A DNA stretch of 64,000 nt from an uncultured Alphaproteobacteria bacterium (GCA_963803485.1 CAWDMT010000008.1:99060-163059); one strand, 5' to 3'. Counted from the stretch's first letter, positions 55,755 to 60,651 are shown. Notes: generated from the letters alone by a model not told the origin. Numbers and translations are program-made.

Positions 55755-57586
55755 ATGGCGCAGCTGGCACCGGCCGATCATCCTGACCTTGCGGCCCCGG
55801 CACGGGCCTATCTGGGGGTGGAGCGTTCGGTGTCGGGCCGCCGCTGGGTGGATCGGCTCGATCCGGCCACCCACCAGACCGCGCTCGCCATCGCGCAGCG
55901 GGCGGACCTGCCGGAACTCGTCGCGCGCGTCGCCGCCGGGCGTGGAGCCGGCCCGGACGAAATCGGCCGGTTTCTCGACCCAAGCCTCCGCGATCTGATG
56001 CCCGACCCGTCGCTACTGGCGGGGATGGACGCGGCGACGGAGCGGCTGGCCTCTGCGGTGCGCCGTAGAGAGCAGATCGCCATATTTGGCGATTATGACG
56101 TTGACGGAGCCACTTCGTCTGCGTTGCTCGCGCGATTTCTGAACTGGAATGGGCTCCGGCCGGCGATCCACATTCCCGATCGCATCACCGAAGGGTATGG
56201 GCCCAACGAAGACGCGATCTCGCGGCTCGCCGCCGCCGGCGCGACTCTTCTGGTGACGGTCGACTGCGGCTCGACCAGTCCGAGGCATTCACGCACGCCG
56301 CGAAACTCGGCCTGGACGTCGTGGTGATCGACCACCACCAGGTGGGCGAGGTCTTGCCGCCGGCGCTGGCGATCGTCAATCCCAACCGCCAGGACGACCT
56401 GAGCGGGCAGGGCCACCTCGCAGCCGTCGGTGTCGTGTTCCTTACCGTGGTAGCCGTCAACCGCGCGCTGCGGCAGTCGGGCTGGTACGCGGACGGGCGG
56501 CACGAACCGGATCTCCTGGTCTGGCTCGATCTCGTCGCTTTGGGGACGGTGGCCGATGTCGTGCCGCTGACCGGCCTCAATCGGGCCTATGTCCGCAAGG
56601 GCCTGACGATCATGCAGCGGCGAGGGTCGGTTGGCCTGGCCGCGCTGGGCGATGTCGCGCGGCTCACGGGGCCGGTCGACTGCTACCATCTGGGATTCCT
56701 GCTCGGCCCCCGGATCAACGCCGGCGGACGCATCGGCGATGCGGGACTGGGAGTGCGGCTCCTCCTCTGCGAGGATCGCGACGACGCCGCGCAGATCGCG
56801 GCCGAACTGGACCGCCTGAACGGCGAGCGGCAGGCGATCGAGCAGGCGATCGTGGACGAGGCCATATTGGCTGTAGAGGCCGCCGGGGACCCGACGGCGG
56901 GCAGCGTCGTGATCGCCCATTCCGATGCGGACTGGCATCCCGGCGTCGTCGGTCTGGTCGCCTCGCGGCTGAAGGAGCGATACGCGCGTCCCGCGTTTGC
57001 GATCGCGTTCCGGCCGGACGGCGTCGGTACCGGCTCCGCCAGGTCCATCAGGGGTATCGACATCGGTTCGGCGGTGCGTGCCGCCGTCGAGTCCGGCATC
57101 GCCCTCAAGGGGGGAGGCCATGCCATGGCCGCCGGTCTGACCGTGCACCGGGATCGTCTGGCCGATCTTCAGGCCTTCCTCGGCGAGCGGCTGGCCGCGT
57201 TCGCGGGCACCGGCGATCCGTCGGTTCTCGAGATCGACGGCGCGCTCACGGCCACTGCGGCGCGCGTCGAACTGGTCACGGCGCTGGAAGCCGCGGGTCC
57301 GTTCGGATCGGGCAACCCGGAGCCCGTCTTCGCCCTGCCGGCGCACCGAATCGCTTTCGCTGAGGCGACCGCGCAGGGTCATGTGCGTTGCGCGTTCTCG
57401 ACCTCTGACGGCGGGCGGATCAAGGCAATCGCCTTCCGGGCCGCCGACGATCCGCTCGGTGCGGCTCTTCTCAACGGACGCGGAGATTCCGTTCACGCCG
57501 CGGGCGTGCTGCGGATCGACCGTTGGGGCGGACGCGAAGAGGTCTGCCTGCACCTGCGCGATCTCGCGCTCGCCAAGGCCCGCTGA
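55755..57586 (+). pseudogene. recJ: Single-stranded-DNA-specific exonuclease RecJ, one frame change near 56281
   Basis: IAIFGDYDVDGATSSALL...VTVDCGSTS (55755 frame). Then EAFTHAAKLGLDVVVIDHHQ...GGHAMAAGLTV (56321 frame). DHH/DHHA1 motifs are present. Confidence 0.9.
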
Positions 57587-57804
57587 AGCCCGGTCCCTCC
57601 CGAATTTTCCCTATGCCGCGGAATAAACGCCCGGCGCCTCCGTTCTCGTATGCAGAGGTGGAGGCCAGGGCGAGTTCATCGGACGAGACCTTTCGCCCCC
57701 GTCCAGCCGCGACCCTCCACCTCGCTGGACATCGAGCGGAATAGCCGGTCGGACCGGCGCTGACTTCACGGCGCCTCAGCCCGCCGGCAGAACGGAGACA
57801 GGAC

Positions 57805-58203
57805 ATGAGCGATCATTCGAATGACGCGAACACTGCGGAAGACGCGCCGAACCTAGACCGGCGCCGGATGCTGATGCGCCTCGGGCTGGCGGCGACCGCG
57901 ATCTACTCCGCGCCCGTGCTGCTTCAGCTGAACGAGGCCCATGCCTCGGGCGGCAGCGGCGGCGGCCGGGGCGGCAGCGGCGGCGGCCGGGGCGGCGGCA
58001 GCGGCGGGCGTGGCGGTCGCGGAAGCGGCGGCCGGGGCAGCGGTGGCCGGGGCAGCGGTCGCGGTCGCGGCGGGCAGGCTGCCCGCGGATTCGGCGGACA
58101 CCGGGGAAGCTGGGGCAGCGGCGCACGCCGCGGCGGCAACCGCGGGAATACGACGCTCAGCCAGGGGCTGATGCGCGACCTGCGCGATGCTTTCGGGCGG
58201 TAA
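57805..58203 (+). CDS. Small exported/precursor-like protein A: 47-aa twin-arginine-type leader ending AHA, 85-aa Gly/Ser/Arg (RGG) core
   Basis: GGAGA lies 6 nt upstream of the ATG. The leader DRRRMLMRLGLAATAIYSAPVLLQLNEAHA is 25/29 identical to the next ORF, with mostly synonymous DNA differences. By my count the core has 16 Arg and 2 Asp. Confidence 0.7.
   Translation: MSDHSNDANTAEDAPNLDRRRMLMRLGLAATAIYSAPVLLQLNEAHASGGSGGGRGGSGGGRGGGSGGRGGRGSGGRGSGGRGSGRGRGGQAARGFGGHRGSWGSGARRGGNRGNTTLSQGLMRDLRDAFGR
57951..57992 (+). repeat. Perfect 21-bp in-frame tandem duplication (2 units, partial third) inside the RGG core
   Basis: CGGCAGCGGCGGCGGCCGGGG at 57951-57971 and again at 57972-57992. It encodes GGSGGGR twice. 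Confidence 0.85.
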
Positions 58204-58272
58204 GGCCCTCTTCGCCGGGAGCTGCCCAGGCCGCACCCGGCGTCCTTGAACCCAAATGACGGGAGAACAGCG

Positions 58273-58563
58273 ATGACCGAGAGAAACGACAACTCCGACG
58301 AGCCGGTGATGACCCGCCGGGGCATGCTGATGAAGCTCGGCCTCGCGGCGACCGCCATCTACACGGCGCCGGTCCTGCTTCAGCTCAACGAGGCCAAGGC
58401 CTCGGGCGGGAGCTGGGGCAGCCGTGGAAGCGGACGTCGGCGGCGCTACAGCTACGCCAGCGGCGGACGTCGACGGACCCGCGCTCGCTACAGCTACGGC
58501 AGCGGGGGACGCAGGCAGGTGAGCCCGGAACGGGTCATCCGGGGCGTACTCGGAAACCTCTGA
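58273..58563 (+). CDS. Small exported/precursor-like protein B: 43-aa twin-arginine-type leader ending AKA, 53-aa Arg/Ser/Tyr/Gly core
   Basis: GGGAGA lies 6 nt upstream of ATG 58273. Leader TRRGMLMKLGLAATAIYTAPVLLQLNEAKA. The core has two RYSY(A/G)SGGRR motifs. By my count it has 14 Arg and 1 Glu. Confidence 0.7.
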   Translation: MTERNDNSDEPVMTRRGMLMKLGLAATAIYTAPVLLQLNEAKASGGSWGSRGSGRRRRYSYASGGRRRTRARYSYGSGGRRQVSPERVIRGVLGNL

Positions 58564-58640
58564 ACCTGACCAGCGCGCAGTGGGCGGGCGCCGTGCCGGG
58601 CACGGCGTCCGTTCCCTGGCCGACCACGACGAGGCGAGAT

Positions 58641-59885
58641 ATGCTTAAGCCCGAAGAGCCACTTCCCGCGATGGACCGGACCCTCATCTCGTTCGACGGA
58701 CTGTCCAGGCCGGTCGCCCTCGTCGGGTGCGACGAACTCCTGGAGATCTTCGACGCCGTCGTGAAGGGATGGCGACATGTCCCGGCGTCCGCCGATGCCG
58801 GCGAGCCGGTCATAACGATCACGGCCGACGGCCCGGAATATCTGATCGACGGCCCGGTGGACGATCCGTTCTACGAGGATACCGGCGTCAGTGCTGTCTG
58901 CAGCTTCATCGTCGACTTCGTGCACAGCTACATCCTCGACAACCCCGACCTCCTCTGCCTGCACTGCGGGGCGGCCGAGATCGCCGGGCGACTGGTCGTC
59001 TTCCCGAGCGCGACAAGGGCAGGGAAGAGCACGCTCATCTCGCGGCTCTCGGGCGCGGGCGTCCGGGTATTCACCGACGACCTGCTGCCTATAACGCCGG
59101 ACGACCGCGGCATGGGCCTCGGCATCGCGCCGCGCCTTAGGCTGCCGCTTCCGGAGATCGCGAGCGAGCCCTTCCGGCGCTTCGTCGTGGATCATGCCGG
59201 ACCCGACGATCCCGACTATCTCTATCTCGACCTGCCGACGGAGGTTCACGCCACGCACGGGGAGACCGCGCCTCTGGGCGCCGTGGTGCTGCTGCAGCGC
59301 GAGGCCGGCGCGAGGGCCGAGCTCCTGCCGGCGGCGACCGGGCAGAGCCTCAAGCATCTCATCGTCCAGAACCTGGCCCGCGACGGCGCCGCGACGGCGA
59401 TGATCGACCGGCTTCATGCGATCGTCTCGGCGCTGCCGTGCTTCACCTTGCGCTATTCCGACCTCGACGAGGCGGCGGAGCTTCTGAAGTCCCGGTTCGC
59501 CGACTGGGAGGCGTTGAGCGATGAAGAGGCGGGCGAGGCACCCCATCCCGCACCCCCGGCCATCGCCGACGAGCATCTCCCCGCGCGGATGGAGGGGCCG
59601 CGCTCGGTGGCGATAGACGGGGCAAGATACTCCCAAACAGCGGGCGTCCAACTGCGGGTGGTCGACGGACACCTGTTCCTCGCCGACGCCGAGGATCGCG
59701 CCGTATTCCACCTCAACACGACGGGCGCCGGCATCTGGAATCTGCTGGAGAACGCGGCCTCTCACGCGGAGGCGGTCGACGTGCTCGGCGTCGCGTTTCC
59801 GAACGTCGACCGGACGGCCATCGCCCACAACGTCGCGGAGGTCATGTCCGACCTCTACGACGCGGGCCTGATCCGGCGCGCCTGA
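58641..59885 (+). CDS. HPr-kinase-like P-loop protein fused to a C-terminal PqqD-like (RiPP recognition element) domain
   Basis: ATG 58641 with GAGGCGAG upstream (the track ORF starts at GTG 58593). LHCGAAEIAGRLVVFPSATRAGKSTLISRLSGAGVRVFTDDLL resembles the HprK C-terminal/HprK-related kinase P-loop block. VFHLNTTGAGIWNLLENAASHAEAVDVLGVAFPNVDRTAIAHNVAEVMSDLYDAGLI matches the PqqD-family pattern. Both calls are by eye. Confidence 0.65.
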   Translation: MLKPEEPLPAMDRTLISFDGLSRPVALVGCDELLEIFDAVVKGWRHVPASADAGEPVITITADGPEYLIDGPVDDPFYEDTGVSAVCSFIVDFVHSYILDNPDLLCLHCGAAEIAGRLVVFPSATRAGKSTLISRLSGAGVRVFTDDLLPITPDDRGMGLGIAPRLRLPLPEIASEPFRRFVVDHAGPDDPDYLYLDLPTEVHATHGETAPLGAVVLLQREAGARAELLPAATGQSLKHLIVQNLARDGAATAMIDRLHAIVSALPCFTLRYSDLDEAAELLKSRFADWEALSDEEAGEAPHPAPPAIADEHLPARMEGPRSVAIDGARYSQTAGVQLRVVDGHLFLADAEDRAVFHLNTTGAGIWNLLENAASHAEAVDVLGVAFPNVDRTAIAHNVAEVMSDLYDAGLIRRA

Positions 59886-59892
59886 GCCCCGG

Positions 59893-60651
59893 CTACTTGT
59901 TCGTGACGCTCTTGAGGAACTCGCCGAACTCGACGGGGAAGGGGAAAACAATGGTCGAGTTCTTCTCCCCGGCGATGAAGCCCAGCGTGGAGAGGTAGCG
60001 AAGCTGCATTGCTTCCGGCGCGCGGCCGAGGATTTCAGCGGCCTCGAGCAGCTTCTGGGCGGCCTGTTCCTCGCCCTCGGCGTTGATGATCTTGGCACGG
60101 CGCTCGCGCTCGGCCTCGGCCTGCCGGGCGATCGCACGGATCATCGACTGGTCGATGTCGATATGCTTGATCTCCACGTTGGCGACCTTGATGCCCCAGG
60201 CATCGGTATGGCTGTCGAGAATCTCCTGGATGTCGCTGTTCAGCTTGTCGCGCTCCGAAAGCATCTCGTCGAGCTCGTGCTTGCCCAGCACCGACCGCAG
60301 GGTGGTCTGCGACAGTTCGGAGGTCGCCTGCATGAAGTTCTCGACCTGGATCGTCGCCCGCTCGGGATCGACGATGCGGAAGTAGATCACGGCGGAGACA
60401 CGCACCGAGACGTTGTCCTGCGAGATCACGTCCTGGCTGGGCACGTCGAGCACCAGCGTCCTGAGGTCGGTGCGGACCATCTGCTGGATATACGGGATCA
60501 GCAGGATCAGGCCCGGACCCTTGACGCCGGTGAACCGGCCCAGCGTGAAGATCACGCCACGCTCGTATTCGCGCAGGATCTTGATCGCCGAGGACAGGAA
60601 CAGGACGACCAGGACGATCGCGAGAATGTAGAAGGCGAATTCGAAGGGCAT
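59893..60651 (-). CDS. SPFH/band-7 (stomatin-like) protein
   Basis: N-terminal TM, then [18 protein letters not shown]...[32 protein letters not shown]...[17 protein letters not shown]. Confidence 0.9.

What the first reader, a model, noticed from the sequence alone, without database searches (positions are those of the whole stretch)
57805..59885. Candidate undescribed peptide-maturation (RiPP-like) locus: two leader-sharing cationic peptides plus an HprK-like kinase fused to a PqqD-like recognition domain
Seen in the sequence: three same-strand genes separated by 69-nt and 77-nt spacers. The first two are small ORFs (132 and 96 aa) with a conserved leader and unrelated Gly/Ser/Arg-rich cores. 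The third is a ~414-aa protein with two parts. Its N-terminal two thirds carry an HPr-kinase-like P-loop block (LHCGAAEIAGRLVVFPSATRAGKSTL...FTDDLL). Its last ~90 aa follow the PqqD-family pattern (FHLNTTGAGIWNLL...S..EAVDVL...FPNVD...I..NV.EVMSDLYDAGLI). Established knowledge: PqqD-like RRE domains bind precursor leader peptides in many RiPP pathways. HPr-kinase homologues phosphorylate Ser residues of some lasso-peptide precursors. Uncharacterised 'HprK-related kinase A/B + PqqD' gene sets are also catalogued. This locus has no lasso cyclase or leader protease, no radical-SAM or YcaO enzyme, and no dedicated ABC exporter. The leader itself looks like a Tat/Sec signal with an AxA signal-peptidase site. 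Inference: this may be a minimal system in which the export signal doubles as the recognition leader. The kinase would modify Ser (or Tyr) in SGGR / RYSY contexts before export, perhaps masking the charge of a very cationic secreted peptide. I know of no characterised system with this architecture.
Basis: partly seen in the sequence, partly recalled or inferred. Interest (0 to 1): 0.85.

Follow-up and report, generated by a model that had tools for sequence, protein, structure and literature searches.

The report
Leader-guided peptide kinase cassette, LPP-like
Two small genes for secretion-signal-bearing, serine/glycine/arginine-rich peptides sit next to an enzyme that fuses a serine-kinase-like domain to a peptide-leader-binding domain; this cassette recurs in many alphaproteobacteria, has not been described, and its closest studied relative is a phosphorylated-peptide pathway of Bacillota reported in 2026.

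Summary
Three same-strand genes are present: pepA (57805-58203), pepB (58273-58563) and a 414-aa enzyme (58641-59885), with 69- and 77-nt spacers. The peptides share a leader, RRxxLxxLGLxxxxxYxxPxLLxLxxAxA|S. The enzyme's N-domain has a PEPCK/HprK fold with the HprK His, GKS and DD residues conserved. Its C-domain is a PqqD-family RRE closest to lasso B1 proteins.

The gene pairing is conserved: at least 54 of 60 informative homologous loci carry one or two leader-bearing ORFs just upstream. Split (kinase plus PqqD) and kinase-only versions exist. Twelve loci add a subtilisin-like peptidase carrying the same leader.

Cores are rich in Ser, Gly and Arg but not always cationic. 48 of 51 have a Ser within five residues of the AxA site.

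The closest known system is the Linear Polyphosphorylated Peptides (LPP) of Bacillota (PMC13381572). It has an HprK-like kinase, a discrete RRE, a YxxPxV leader and a signal-peptidase-I-type leader peptidase. This locus differs in four ways: the kinase and RRE are fused, the leader looks like a Tat signal, and there is no dedicated peptidase and no exporter.

Best reading: the enzyme binds the leader and phosphorylates core Ser in the cytoplasm, then general export and signal peptidase finish the job. It is a new variant of a known kind. No biochemistry was tested.

The parts
57794..57798 (+). Shine-Dalgarno-like GGAGA, 6 nt before the pepA ATG
   Evidence: Read directly from the sequence.
57805..57945 (+). 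pepA leader (aa 1-47): RRR at aa 19-21, hydrophobic stretch, and AHA at positions -3 to -1
   Evidence: Leader alignment A3 has invariant RR, L, GL, P and A(-1), and near-invariant Y and A(-3). The leader HMM hits at E 3e-23.
57904..57921 (+). Y34-S-A-P37-V-L39 in pepA: a YxxPxL motif at positions -14 to -9 from the AxA site
   Evidence: Y and P are (near-)invariant in 21 leaders. [Y/W]xxPx[L/V/I...] is the motif bound by lasso and LPP RREs (PMC13381572; PMC10368454).
57946..58203 (+). pepA core (85 aa plus stop): SGG/RGG-rich and low-complexity, with a C-terminal LMRDLRDAFGR tail
   Evidence: Similar RGG-rich cores with tails such as MRLLRNMFGFR occur in L008 and L013.
58261..58265 (+). Shine-Dalgarno-like GGGAG, 7 nt before the pepB ATG
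   Evidence: Read directly from the sequence.
58273..58401 (+). pepB leader (aa 1-43) with RR at aa 15-16, YTAPVL at 58360-58377, and AKA at positions -3 to -1
   Evidence: E 1.7e-23.
58402..58563 (+). pepB core (53 aa plus stop): SGGSWGSRGSGRRRRYSYASGGRRR..., net charge about +13
58631..58634 (+). Shine-Dalgarno-like GAGG, 6 nt before the enzyme ATG
   Evidence: The alternative ATG at 58671 has no SD.
58641..59531 (+). Enzyme N-terminal domain (aa 1 to about 297): P-loop kinase-like, PEPCK/HprK fold. His108 is at 58962-58964, G128-K129-S130 at 59022-59030, and D146-D147 at 59076-59081
   Evidence: AF2 model: pLDDT 89.6, pTM 0.87. Foldseek: ATP-PEPCK E 2e-6; HprK/P 1kkl/1jb1 E 6e-4, target-normalised TM 0.57. 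All 22 aligned family members hit TIGR04352 at E<=0.01. A phmmer alignment of family member P0112 to L. casei HprK/P lines up LH, GKS and DD; these residues are invariant or near-invariant in A1.
59532..59621 (+). Inter-domain linker (aa about 298-327), predicted disordered
   Evidence: pLDDT is below 50 for residues 306-322. The region varies in length and sequence in A1.
59622..59885 (+). Enzyme C-terminal PqqD-family RRE domain (aa 328-414) plus stop
   Evidence: Pfam PF05402 at 34.5 bits, cut-off 23.4. Profile search against PDB: TbiB1 5v1u E 6.6e-10, LppB 9x8z E 1.3e-6, PbaB1 9x90, TfuB1 6jx3. Foldseek: TbiB1 target-normalised TM 0.85, rmsd 1.8 A. The stand-alone PqqD of L017 matches 59622-59879.

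Best explanation
This is a compact, self-contained peptide-modification cassette of the lasso/LPP 'HprK-like kinase plus RRE' type.

Proposed mechanism:
1. pepA and pepB are precursors. Their N-terminal 43-47 residues do two jobs. They form a twin-arginine-type signal peptide (RR, a moderately hydrophobic stretch, a basic c-region, and AxA). Embedded in the hydrophobic stretch is the YxxPxL motif that lasso-type RREs bind.
2. The cytoplasmic 414-aa enzyme docks on that motif through its C-terminal RRE.
3. Its N-terminal HprK/PEPCK-fold P-loop domain phosphorylates Ser of the Ser/Gly/Arg-rich, disordered core, possibly several times. The most likely first target is the conserved Ser just after the leader, by analogy with Ser3 of LppA and BsfA.
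4. The modified peptide is exported by a general pathway (Tat, or Sec), and housekeeping signal peptidase I removes the leader at AxA|S. This would explain why the cassette needs no protease or transporter of its own.

Shown here: the gene anatomy, the domain identities and fold, conservation of the catalytic residues, conservation of the leader, and the peptide-enzyme co-occurrence.

Inferred: RRE-leader binding, Ser phosphorylation and its site, export and its route, and cleavage by signal peptidase.
For: Genes and translation signals:
- The genes are real and have SD sequences.

The enzyme:
- PqqD scores above the Pfam cut-off.
- The C-domain's best solved relatives are leader-bound lasso and LPP RREs: 5v1u, 9x8z, 9x90 and 6jx3.
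- By my reading of the alignment against the contacts described, RRE cleft positions of LppB map onto conserved family residues: L32/N33 to the 'HLN' motif with invariant L358, Y60 to invariant F386, D70 to near-invariant D397 (Asn in the window protein), and M78 to invariant L405.
- The N-domain has a PEPCK/HprK fold.
- The HprK/P His, GKS and DD residues align and are conserved across 22 proteins that are only 38-50% identical to the window protein.
- All 22 members match HprK_rel_A at E<=0.01.

The leader:
- Invariant RR...GL...YxxP...AxA in 21 leaders.
- Y(-14), P(-11) and L(-9) are spaced like Y-16/P-13/V-11 in LppA and W-15/P-12/L-10 in PbaA.
- The only HMM hits are Tat-signal models.

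Co-occurrence:
- 50 of 60 loci with at least 450 nt of upstream sequence carry a leader ORF by regex. L083, L071 and L078 are added by HMM or by eye, and L039 by a C-terminal peptide fragment cut off at the contig edge whose leader is not visible.
- Starting from the peptides instead, fused (L088), split (L017) and kinase-only (L087) partners are found.
- Apart from an S8 peptidase, no other gene is conserved in the neighbourhood. This fits the use of general export and cleavage.

The cores:
- Composition is G 29%, S 19%, R 12%. 48 of 51 have a Ser in the first five residues, and none lacks Ser/Thr.

Precedent:
- HprK-like kinases (poly)phosphorylate Ser of leader-bearing linear precursors. 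BsfK was assayed with the RRE BsfB1 co-expressed; RRE-assisted phosphorylation is stated in the introduction of PMC13381572.
- The LPP leader is removed by a signal-peptidase-I homologue (PMC8498205; PMC10368454; PMC13381572).
Against: - No biochemical data exist for any member of this family.
- The kinase domain misses the curated cut-offs of every named HprK family: TIGR04352 at 42 bits against 200, and no PF07475 hit for the window protein.
- Its Walker A is atypical (SxxxxGKS).
- Tat-signal HMMs are all sub-threshold and do not hit the two window leaders themselves with TIGR01409. SignalP and TatP could not be run.
- The same leader, YxxP included, occurs on peptides whose neighbours within +/-6 kb have neither kinase nor PqqD (L018-L020, next to a TPR-methyltransferase). 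It also occurs next to a kinase lacking an RRE (L087). YxxP may therefore serve something other than RRE binding, or more than that.
- In BsfA, Ala substitution of Y, P and L did not abolish phosphorylation.
- One locus with ample upstream sequence (L004) has no leader ORF.
Confidence: 0.55

Rival explanations
1. Phosphorylation is only the first step. The phospho-Ser is then elaborated by enzymes encoded elsewhere in the genome, for example glycosylated or nucleotidylated through an NTP transferase as in pseudomycoidin and proposed for LPP, or eliminated to dehydroalanine. The product would then be a phosphoglycosylated or otherwise modified peptide rather than a simple phosphopeptide.
For: The split version of the system (L017) lies beside an NTP_transf_5 gene, an HldE-like heptose kinase/adenylyltransferase and sugar epimerases. 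GmhA/HldE/glycosyltransferase genes also flank leader peptides in L018, L020 and L087. LPP and paeninodin-type clusters pair the kinase with an NTP transferase.
Against: The window holds no NTP_transf_5 relative. In roughly 80 fused-enzyme loci the only recurrent neighbour is the S8 peptidase. Contexts such as paa or LPS genes are unrelated and vary.
Confidence: 0.15
2. The leader is not an export signal. The RR/hydrophobic/YxxP segment is purely a recognition element for the enzyme. The peptides act in the cytoplasm, or they are released by another protease, such as the leader-bearing S8 peptidase recruited to an oligomeric enzyme.
For: Tat HMM scores are below cut-off. RiPP leaders are often partly hydrophobic, and YxxPxL sits inside the putative h-region. 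An S8 peptidase is co-encoded in 12 loci.
Against: RR, a 17-20-residue uncharged stretch, a basic c-region and an invariant AxA together make a complete signal-peptide architecture. The same segment heads a 420-580-aa subtilisin-like peptidase, a protein class that is normally secreted. The window has no dedicated exporter and no S8 or other cassette-type protease.
Confidence: 0.12
3. The enzyme is not a modifying kinase. It is a signal-peptide-binding chaperone or proofreading NTPase, by analogy with Tat REMPs such as TorD and DmsD. It would hold sticky, disordered cationic or acidic cargo and hand it to the translocon.
For: The leader is signal-like and shared by cargo of very different kinds, both peptides and an S8 peptidase. 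The leader also occurs without the enzyme nearby. P-loop domains can act as switches.
Against: The full HprK/P phosphotransfer constellation (His, GKS and DD) is invariant or near-invariant. The characterised relatives cited here (HprK/P and the lasso, LPP and BsfK kinases) are kinases. Ser is enriched in every core.
Confidence: 0.08
4. The small ORFs are chance ORFs of a high-GC genome, and the enzyme acts on unrelated substrates.
For: The region has many overlapping ORFs in all frames. The pepA core is low-complexity, with an uninformative GC3 of 0.78.
Against: The leader is conserved at the protein level across loci whose enzymes are only 33-56% identical. The position and strand are conserved, and there are SD sites. 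A leader HMM finds only these two hits in 64 kb.
Confidence: 0.02

Closest known systems
Linear Polyphosphorylated Peptides (LPP) of Bacillota: LppA, LppK, LppB, LppS, LppD, LppN (PMC13381572, Nat Commun 2026)
   Same: - Linear precursors of 35-200 aa with a conserved N-terminal leader and highly variable cores, one to three per cluster.
- An HprK-like kinase together with a lasso-type RRE.
- A leader carrying YxxPx[V/L] at about -16 to -11.
- Ser near the start of the core (Ser3) is the (poly)phosphorylation site in LPP. Here Ser lies within five residues of the leader end in 48 of 51 cores.
- Leader removal uses signal-peptidase-I chemistry.
- No macrolactam cyclase.
- LppB (PDB 9x8z) is among the best solved matches of the C-domain.
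   Different: - Kinase and RRE are fused in one 414-aa protein here; split forms exist in relatives such as L017.
- The leader motif differs: RRxxLxxLGLxxxxxYxxPxLLxLxxAxA rather than YxxPxVLxHQxIxFETxxS. It has the architecture of a Tat signal peptide.
- The window has no SipW-like LppS, no MsbA-like exporter and no NTP transferase.
- Cores are low-complexity Gly/Ser/Arg (or acidic) sequences.
- An S8 peptidase with the same leader is the only recurrent accessory gene.
- The hosts are alphaproteobacteria and a few other marine or soil proteobacteria, not Bacillota. The paper mentions neither Proteobacteria nor a kinase-RRE fusion.
Phosphorylated lasso peptide pathways (paeninodin PadeK, ThcoK/SyanK, BsfK with BsfB1; pseudomycoidin)
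   Same: An HprK homologue phosphorylates Ser of the linear, leader-bearing precursor. A B1-type RRE recognises YxxPxL. The C-domain here is most similar to lasso B1 proteins: TbiB1 E 6.6e-10, target-normalised TM 0.85.
   Different: There is no lasso cyclase (C) and no B2 protease. The cores are far longer and unlike lasso cores. The kinase is fused to the RRE, and the leader is signal-peptide-like.
NCBIfam 'HprK-related kinase A/B' with PqqD gene sets (TIGR04352, TIGR04355; uncharacterised)
   Same: HprK_rel_A is the best-scoring named family for the N-domain: all 22 members hit at E<=0.01, best 6e-17. From my own knowledge of the TIGRFAMs descriptions, these families are also paired with a PqqD-family protein.
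   Different: Scores are far below the equivalog cut-off (42 bits against 200), and only about 50 residues around the P-loop align. This is a different, unnamed family.
HPr kinase/phosphorylase (HprK/P) and ATP-dependent PEP carboxykinase
   Same: The fold matches, and so does the catalytic motif order: LH...G(x)L...GKS...DD.
   Different: About 10-15% identity. There is no HPr substrate context. An extra N-terminal subdomain resembles PEPCK more than HprK/P, and an RRE is fused at the C-terminus.
Twin-arginine (Tat) signal peptides and their binding chaperones (REMPs)
   Same: The leader has Z-RR-x-hydrophobic-L, a moderately hydrophobic h-region, a basic c-region and AxA. Tat-type HMMs are its only hits. 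A cytoplasmic protein predicted to bind the signal before export parallels TorD and DmsD (own knowledge).
   Different: Scores are sub-threshold. The binding domain is an RRE (a winged helix), not a TorD-family fold, and it is fused to a kinase-like catalytic domain.

Membership tests
Pfam PF05402 PqqD / RRE | HMM score above the gathering threshold (23.4 bits) | tested here: met
   34.5 bits, E 2.6e-8, for the window protein. 22 of 22 aligned family members hit.
Lasso-type (B1) RRE | Winged-helix RRE fold superposable on B1-leader complexes | tested here: met
   Foldseek: TbiB1 5v1v, target-normalised TM 0.85, rmsd 1.8 A over 86 columns. Profile search: 5v1u E 6.6e-10, 9x8z 1.3e-6, 9x90 9e-5, 6jx3 1e-4.
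Lasso-type (B1) RRE | NCBIfam lasso_PqqD models above their cut-offs (70 and 80 bits) | tested here: not met
   NF033530 scores 24.7 bits and NF033536 scores 18.3 bits. The domain is related but is not a member of those exception-level models.
Lasso-type (B1) RRE | The cognate leader carries [Y/W]xxPx[L/V/I/A/F/Y] about 10-17 residues before the cleavage site | tested here: met
   YSAPVL and YTAPVL lie at -14 to -9. Y is near-invariant and P invariant in 21 leaders. The motif definition is from PMC13381572. Actual binding was not tested.
Lasso peptide BGC | Asn-synthetase-like macrolactam cyclase (C) and transglutaminase-like B2 protease | tested here: not met
   Neither is in the immediate flanks, which are recJ, SPFH, NfeD and SLT_2. 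Neither is a recurrent neighbour in about 80 loci. The rest of the window was not scanned specifically for these two genes.
Pfam PF07475 Hpr_kinase_C | HMM score above the gathering threshold (33.3 bits) | tested here: not met
   The window protein has no hit at E<=1. Only 1 of 22 family members hits, at 25.9 bits.
HprK/P-type kinase (by mechanism) | Conserved His, P-loop GK[ST] and DD catalytic constellation on the HprK/PEPCK fold | tested here: met
   Aligned to L. casei HprK/P. H108, G128, K129, S130 and D147 are invariant and D146 is at least 90% conserved. Fold match: PEPCK E 2e-6, HprK/P E 6e-4. Catalysis was not tested.
NCBIfam TIGR04352 HprK-related kinase A | Score of at least 200 bits (equivalog) | tested here: not met
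   42 bits, covering only profile positions 95-146 of 280.
NCBIfam TIGR04355 HprK-related kinase B | Hit above the cut-off | tested here: not met
   No hit for the window protein. 3 of 22 relatives hit weakly, best E 2e-4.
LPP (Linear Polyphosphorylated Peptides) | HprK-like kinase plus RRE acting on a linear precursor, with no cyclase | tested here: met
   Here the two are fused rather than discrete.
LPP (Linear Polyphosphorylated Peptides) | Precursor leader consensus YxxPxVLxHQxIxFETxxS | tested here: not met
   Only the YxxPx[VL] part is shared. The rest of the leader is RR...LGL...AxA (compared).
LPP (Linear Polyphosphorylated Peptides) | Archaeal-type (SipW-like) signal peptidase I, MsbA-like exporter and NTP transferase in the cluster | tested here: not met
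   None flanks the cassette, and the window has no NTP_transf_5 relative. SipW-like and MsbA-like genes were not searched for across the rest of the window. NTP_transf_5 is present only beside the split variant L017.
LPP (Linear Polyphosphorylated Peptides) | (Poly)phosphorylation of a core Ser | not testable with these tools
   Needs co-expression and mass spectrometry. A Ser lies within the first five core residues in 48 of 51 cores.
Tat signal peptide (TIGR01409) | Score of at least 16.7 bits; experimentally, RR-dependent export | tested here: inconclusive
   Related leaders score 14.6-14.8 bits. The window leaders hit only TIGR02811 formate_TAT, at 12.8-14.2 bits against a cut-off of 48. 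The RR + h-region + basic c-region + AxA architecture is invariant. TatP and SignalP were not available.

The most novel reading that the evidence does not exclude
A bona fide general-secretion (Tat-type) signal peptide has been co-opted as a RiPP leader. An RRE fused to a kinase reads a YxxPxL motif buried in the signal's hydrophobic region and phosphorylates intrinsically disordered RGG/RS/GS-rich cargo in the cytoplasm. The cargo includes the N-terminal linker of a co-encoded subtilisin-like peptidase. The housekeeping translocon and signal peptidase then serve as exporter and leader protease. If so, this would be a peptide-maturation class with no dedicated protease or transporter, and a bacterial counterpart of SR/RGG-domain phosphorylation coupled to secretion.
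Probability: 0.35. Interest if true: 0.8.

Novelty: new variant of a known kind. Interest (0 to 1): 0.66.

Why it matters
If correct, four things follow.

1. It extends the recently defined phosphorylated linear peptide (LPP) logic from Bacillota to a large, unannotated family in alphaproteobacteria. This search alone found 218 enzyme homologues and about 115 leader peptides. The enzymes that carry a name are labelled 'PqqD family protein' or 'hypothetical protein', and the peptides are unnamed or 'hypothetical protein'.

2. It provides a natural kinase-RRE fusion, with a confident structural model, for studying how an RRE hands a substrate to an HprK-like kinase.

3. It suggests that a signal peptide can double as a RiPP leader. 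That blurs the line between protein secretion and natural-product maturation. It would also explain how a two-component cassette can work without its own protease or pump.

4. It points to a class of secreted, phosphorylated, low-complexity peptides of unknown role. Candidates include antimicrobial activity, metal or mineral binding, and envelope or matrix functions.

It also gives genome miners a simple rule: a leader HMM next to an HprK-like domain.

Tried and rejected
- **Diverse alignment for locus scanning.** The 22-sequence alignment A1 was too diverse for the search for related loci. The 6-sequence alignment A2 worked.
- **Source contig look-up.** An exact look-up of P0001's contig found nothing on record, so the rest of the source genome (Tat genes, an S8 peptidase, an NTP transferase elsewhere) could not be examined.
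- **Leader-enzyme complex model.** RRE-leader docking therefore rests on homology and on mapping of cleft residues.
- **Signal and leader HMMs.** Pfam gave no hit for the leaders even at E<=10. NCBIfam gave only sub-threshold Tat-type hits. SignalP, TatP and RRE-Finder are not available here.
- **Literature.** RRE-Finder (PMC7470986) and the 2025 structure-based RRE survey (PMC12710340) contain no mention of HPr, kinase or Tat. Searches combining twin-arginine, RiPP and kinase found nothing on this system.
- **Promoters and terminators.** The scan found no sigma-70-like promoter, and the terminator-like sites found were no more than chance would give.
- **Rejected: charge masking of a very cationic peptide as the general rationale.** About 12 of 51 cores are net acidic.
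- **Rejected: the long antisense ORF 58494-60137 (547 aa) as a gene.** Its GC3 is 0.71 against 0.86 for the enzyme frame, and it recurs only as a shadow of the enzyme gene.
- **Rejected: membership of TIGR04352, PF07475 or the lasso_PqqD models.** The curated cut-offs are not met.

Full report
**1. What is in the sequence**

Window 57805-59885 holds three same-strand ORFs.
- pepA is 57805-58203 (132 aa).
- pepB's mechanical ORF starts at TTG 58246. The ATG at 58273 gives 96 aa.
- The enzyme's mechanical ORF starts at GTG 58593. The ATG at 58641 gives 414 aa, identical to the publicly called protein P0001.

Each ATG is preceded at 6-7 nt by a Shine-Dalgarno-like element: GGAGA, GGGAG and GAGG.

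Third-position GC is 0.83-0.86 in these frames, matching the flanking genes. Overlapping shadow ORFs score 0.71-0.83, and the low-complexity pepA core alone scores 0.78. Both peptides are called, unnamed genes in the public collection.

The two peptides share 28/42 identical residues over the leader (E 1e-17) and nothing afterwards.

The flanks are housekeeping genes: recJ upstream, then a convergent SPFH/NfeD pair, an SLT_2 transglycosylase and a bPH_2 protein downstream. RecJ homology places the source among unnamed Hyphomicrobiales. The closest named relative is Microbaculum, at 71% RecJ identity.

**2. The enzyme**

*C-terminal domain.*
- Pfam PqqD is significant: 34.5 bits against a cut-off of 23.4.
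- A profile of 22 homologues searched against PDB sequences hits only lasso-type and LPP RREs: TbiB1 5v1u (E 6.6e-10), LppB 9x8z (1.3e-6), PbaB1 9x90 and TfuB1 6jx3.

*Predicted structure.*
- AlphaFold2 on that alignment gives a confident two-domain model (pLDDT 89.6, pTM 0.87) with a disordered linker at residues 306-322.
- Foldseek matches the C-domain to leader-bound TbiB1 (target-normalised TM 0.85, rmsd 1.8 A).
- It matches the N-terminal ~300 residues to ATP-dependent PEP carboxykinase (E 2e-6) and HprK/P (E 6e-4, target-normalised TM 0.57).

*Kinase-like domain at sequence level.*
- The window protein scores 42 bits on TIGR04352 HprK_rel_A, far below the 200-bit cut-off.
- All 22 aligned relatives hit that model at E<=0.01. 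Only one reaches even a sub-threshold PF07475 hit.
- A phmmer alignment of relative P0112 to L. casei HprK/P lines up the LH motif, the GKS P-loop and the DD pair.
- The corresponding residues are H108, G128-K129-S130 and D146-D147. They are invariant or near-invariant in an alignment whose members are only 38-50% identical to the window protein.
- From established knowledge of HprK/P (own knowledge, Fieulaine et al. 2002), these are the nucleotide-binding and catalytic residues.

The protein is therefore an HprK/PEPCK-fold, catalytically intact-looking P-loop phosphotransferase fused to a lasso-B1-like RRE. It belongs to no named HprK family.

**3. The leader**

I aligned 21 leaders from the window and related loci.
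- Invariant: RR, L, GL, P and the -1 Ala.
- Near-invariant: Y and the -3 Ala.
- Consensus: RRxxLxxLGLxxxxxYxxPxLLxLxxAxA|S.

This has two readings, and both fit.

*Reading 1: a twin-arginine signal peptide.* It has RR followed by hydrophobic residues, a 17-20-residue uncharged stretch, a basic residue in the c-region, and AxA. The only HMM hits for seven leaders are Tat-type models (TIGR01409 at 14.6-14.8 bits against 16.7, and TIGR02811). All are sub-threshold.

*Reading 2: a lasso-type RRE recognition motif.* It contains YxxPxL at -14 to -9.
- The literature defines [Y/W]xxPx[L/V/I/A/F/Y] as the motif bound by discrete lasso RREs.
- It shows Y-16/P-13/V-11 of LppA and W-15/P-12/L-10 of PbaA sitting in two hydrophobic pockets of the RRE (PMC13381572; PMC10368454).
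- I mapped the described LppB contact residues through the alignment. They fall on the most conserved positions of the C-domain:
  - L32/N33 map to the 'HLN' motif with invariant L358.
  - Y60 maps to invariant F386.
  - D70 maps to near-invariant D397, which is Asn in the window protein.
  - M78 maps to invariant L405.
- This mapping is my own inference from published contacts, not a docking result.

**4. Is the pairing conserved?**

Yes, strongly.
- *Starting from the enzyme.* Scans of one-genome-per-species contigs and of metagenomes returned 14 and 64 loci, and two more loci came from exact look-ups. Of 60 loci with at least 450 nt of upstream sequence, 50 have at least one same-strand leader ORF within 1.5 kb by a simple regex. 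L083, L071 and L078 are recovered by an HMM or by eye. L039 is counted from a C-terminal peptide fragment cut off at the contig edge, whose leader is not visible. One clear exception remains, L004.
- *Specificity.* In about 428 kb of loci the regex gave about two hits that are not plausible leader ORFs (a 26-aa and a 23-aa match in L006 and L065). The remaining hits were leader ORFs near the enzyme, including two downstream of it (L047, L063). In the 64-kb window the leader HMM finds only pepA and pepB (E about 1e-23).
- *Starting from the peptides.* A leader-profile search found about 115 unnamed proteins of 57-81 aa. Their contexts include:
  - another fused enzyme (L088);
  - a split pair, a 298-aa kinase plus an 89-aa PqqD, each homologous to the matching half of the window enzyme (E 3e-42 and 1e-12) (L017);
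  - a kinase-only version (L087).
- *Other neighbours.* An all-against-all comparison of neighbouring ORFs shows one other recurrent gene. It is a subtilisin-like S8 peptidase in 12 loci that carries the same leader followed by a Ser-rich linker. The surrounding genes are otherwise unrelated (paa genes, LPS genes, dehydrogenases).

The unit is therefore a small, self-contained cassette: an optional S8 peptidase, one or two peptides, and the kinase-RRE.

**5. The cores**

I examined 51 distinct cores next to fused enzymes.
- Composition is Gly 29%, Ser 19% and Arg 12%.
- Types include RGG/SGG repeats (the window type), SRP repeats, Arg-rich peptides ending in SFSR, and Gly/Ser/Asp/Glu-rich acidic sequences. 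About a quarter are net acidic.
- 48 of 51 have a Ser within the first five residues after the AxA site. None lacks Ser/Thr.

Ser is the common denominator, not positive charge.

**6. Closest known systems**

*LPP.* The best match is the Linear Polyphosphorylated Peptide (LPP) family of Bacillota (PMC13381572, May 2026).
- Linear precursors of 35-200 aa have a conserved YxxPxV-containing leader and variable cores.
- The HprK-like kinase LppK polyphosphorylates core Ser3.
- LppB is a discrete RRE.
- The SipW-like signal peptidase I, LppS, removes the leader in an RRE-dependent way.
- The cluster also has an MsbA-like pump and an NTP transferase.

*Phosphorylated lasso pathways.* PadeK, ThcoK and BsfK (with BsfB1) set the earlier precedent.

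*How the window cassette compares.*
- Shared: the kinase + RRE + YxxP-leader + linear-peptide logic.
- Different: the fusion, the Tat-like signal architecture of the leader, the absence of a dedicated peptidase, pump and NTP transferase, the low-complexity cores, the leader-bearing S8 peptidase in relatives, and the host phylum.
- The LPP paper mentions neither Proteobacteria nor fused kinase-RREs. Two RRE surveys and my keyword searches found no description of this system.

I therefore classify it as a new variant of a known kind.

**7. Mechanism and its weak points**

*Most likely sequence (confidence about 0.55).*
1. The cytoplasmic enzyme binds the leader's YxxPxL through the RRE.
2. The kinase domain phosphorylates core Ser, possibly repeatedly.
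3. The peptide is exported by a general route.
4. Signal peptidase I cuts at AxA.

The fact that LPP uses a signal-peptidase homologue as its leader protease makes the step to a true signal peptide plausible.

*Weak points.*
- No biochemistry exists for this family.
- The Tat assignment is sub-threshold.
- The same leader, YxxP included, occurs on a Cys-containing peptide subfamily. Its neighbours within +/-6 kb are a TPR-methyltransferase and ADP-heptose genes, with no kinase or RRE (L018-L020).
- The leader also occurs beside a kinase without an RRE (L087).
- In BsfA, Ala substitutions of Y, P and L did not stop phosphorylation.

YxxP may therefore serve more than RRE binding, or a trans-acting RRE may exist in those genomes.

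*Rivals.*
- Phosphorylation is only the first step towards phosphoglycosylation. This is supported by NTP_transf_5, HldE and GmhA genes beside some relatives, but none is in this window.
- The leader is recognition-only, and the peptides are not exported.
- The enzyme is a non-catalytic signal-binding chaperone.
- The small ORFs are spurious. The comparative data effectively exclude this.

**8. Verdict**

Two corrections apply: cationic charge is not general, and a characterised relative (LPP) now exists. The finding is a real, widespread and unannotated peptide-modification cassette whose chemistry and export route are directly testable.

Noticed in passing
window 55755-57586 (+): recJ is split into two overlapping frames. 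A 190-aa N-terminal DHH part (55755-56327) is followed by a 421-aa DHHA1/RecJ_OB part (56321-57586). Homologues are single proteins of about 609 aa, and the public gene call for this contig is the 420-aa fragment. This is a frameshift near 56290-56327, either an assembly error or a pseudogene.
   Followed up: partly
L002, L005, L008, L013, L028, L037, L038, L040, L044, L072, L073, L084 (e.g. L005:4292-5581; L085:7373-8644): A subtilisin-like S8 peptidase (about 410-580 aa; Pfam Peptidase_S8; mycosin-like at 106 bits, below cut-off) carries the same RR...YxxP...AxA leader plus a Ser-rich 'ASSxSFS' linker. It sits directly upstream of the peptide and the kinase-RRE genes. It goes mostly with Arg-rich peptides ending in SFSR. 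No such gene is in the window.
   Followed up: partly
L017:6001-8472: A split version of the system. A leader peptide ends ...GEPGKKS (C-terminal Ser). It is followed by a 298-aa kinase and an 89-aa PqqD. Next to these are NTP_transf_5, an HldE-like heptose kinase/adenylyltransferase and two sugar epimerases/dehydratases. This is the most LPP/pseudomycoidin-like arrangement and hints at phosphoglycosylation.
   Followed up: partly
L018:5553-7469, L019:2049-3965, L020:5890-7343: A large subfamily of peptides has the same leader but a two-Cys core (...HLDRSANAVQPSCxGKGKGNPWC...). These are followed by a 380-aa TPR + SAM-methyltransferase protein. GmhA/HldE/glycosyltransferase and MmcB-like genes lie nearby, with no kinase or PqqD within +/-6 kb. 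The modification and the reason for the shared leader are unknown.
   Followed up: partly
L087:5001-6140: A leader peptide with a Cys/Pro-rich core is followed by a 281-aa kinase-domain-only homologue (36% identical to the window enzyme's N-domain, E 3e-49). No adjacent gene is annotated as PqqD. ADP-heptose genes (SIS, HldE) lie directly upstream.
   Followed up: partly
window 58116-58200 and 58507-58560; L008, L013: The longer RGG-type cores end in a short, non-repetitive, amphipathic-looking tail: LMRDLRDAFGR and VIRGVLGNL in the window, MRLLRNMFGFR in L013, and NNGLRAVGLRF in L008. This may be a conserved C-terminal functional element.
   Followed up: no
window 58494-60137 (-): A 547-aa antisense ORF spans the whole enzyme gene. 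It is a high-GC shadow ORF (GC3 0.71 against 0.86 for the sense frame). It recurs in other loci only as the mirror of the enzyme gene.
   Followed up: yes
window 59885-59893: The enzyme's stop codon ends at 59885. The convergent SPFH gene (59893-60651, minus strand) ends 7 nt away. No terminator-like hairpin lies between them.
   Followed up: no
L086:5800-7004: In the Rhodomicrobiaceae locus, an ECF-type sigma factor and a 237-aa protein with no Pfam hit (a possible anti-sigma factor) are divergently transcribed from the S8-peptide-enzyme cassette. They could be its regulators.
   Followed up: no
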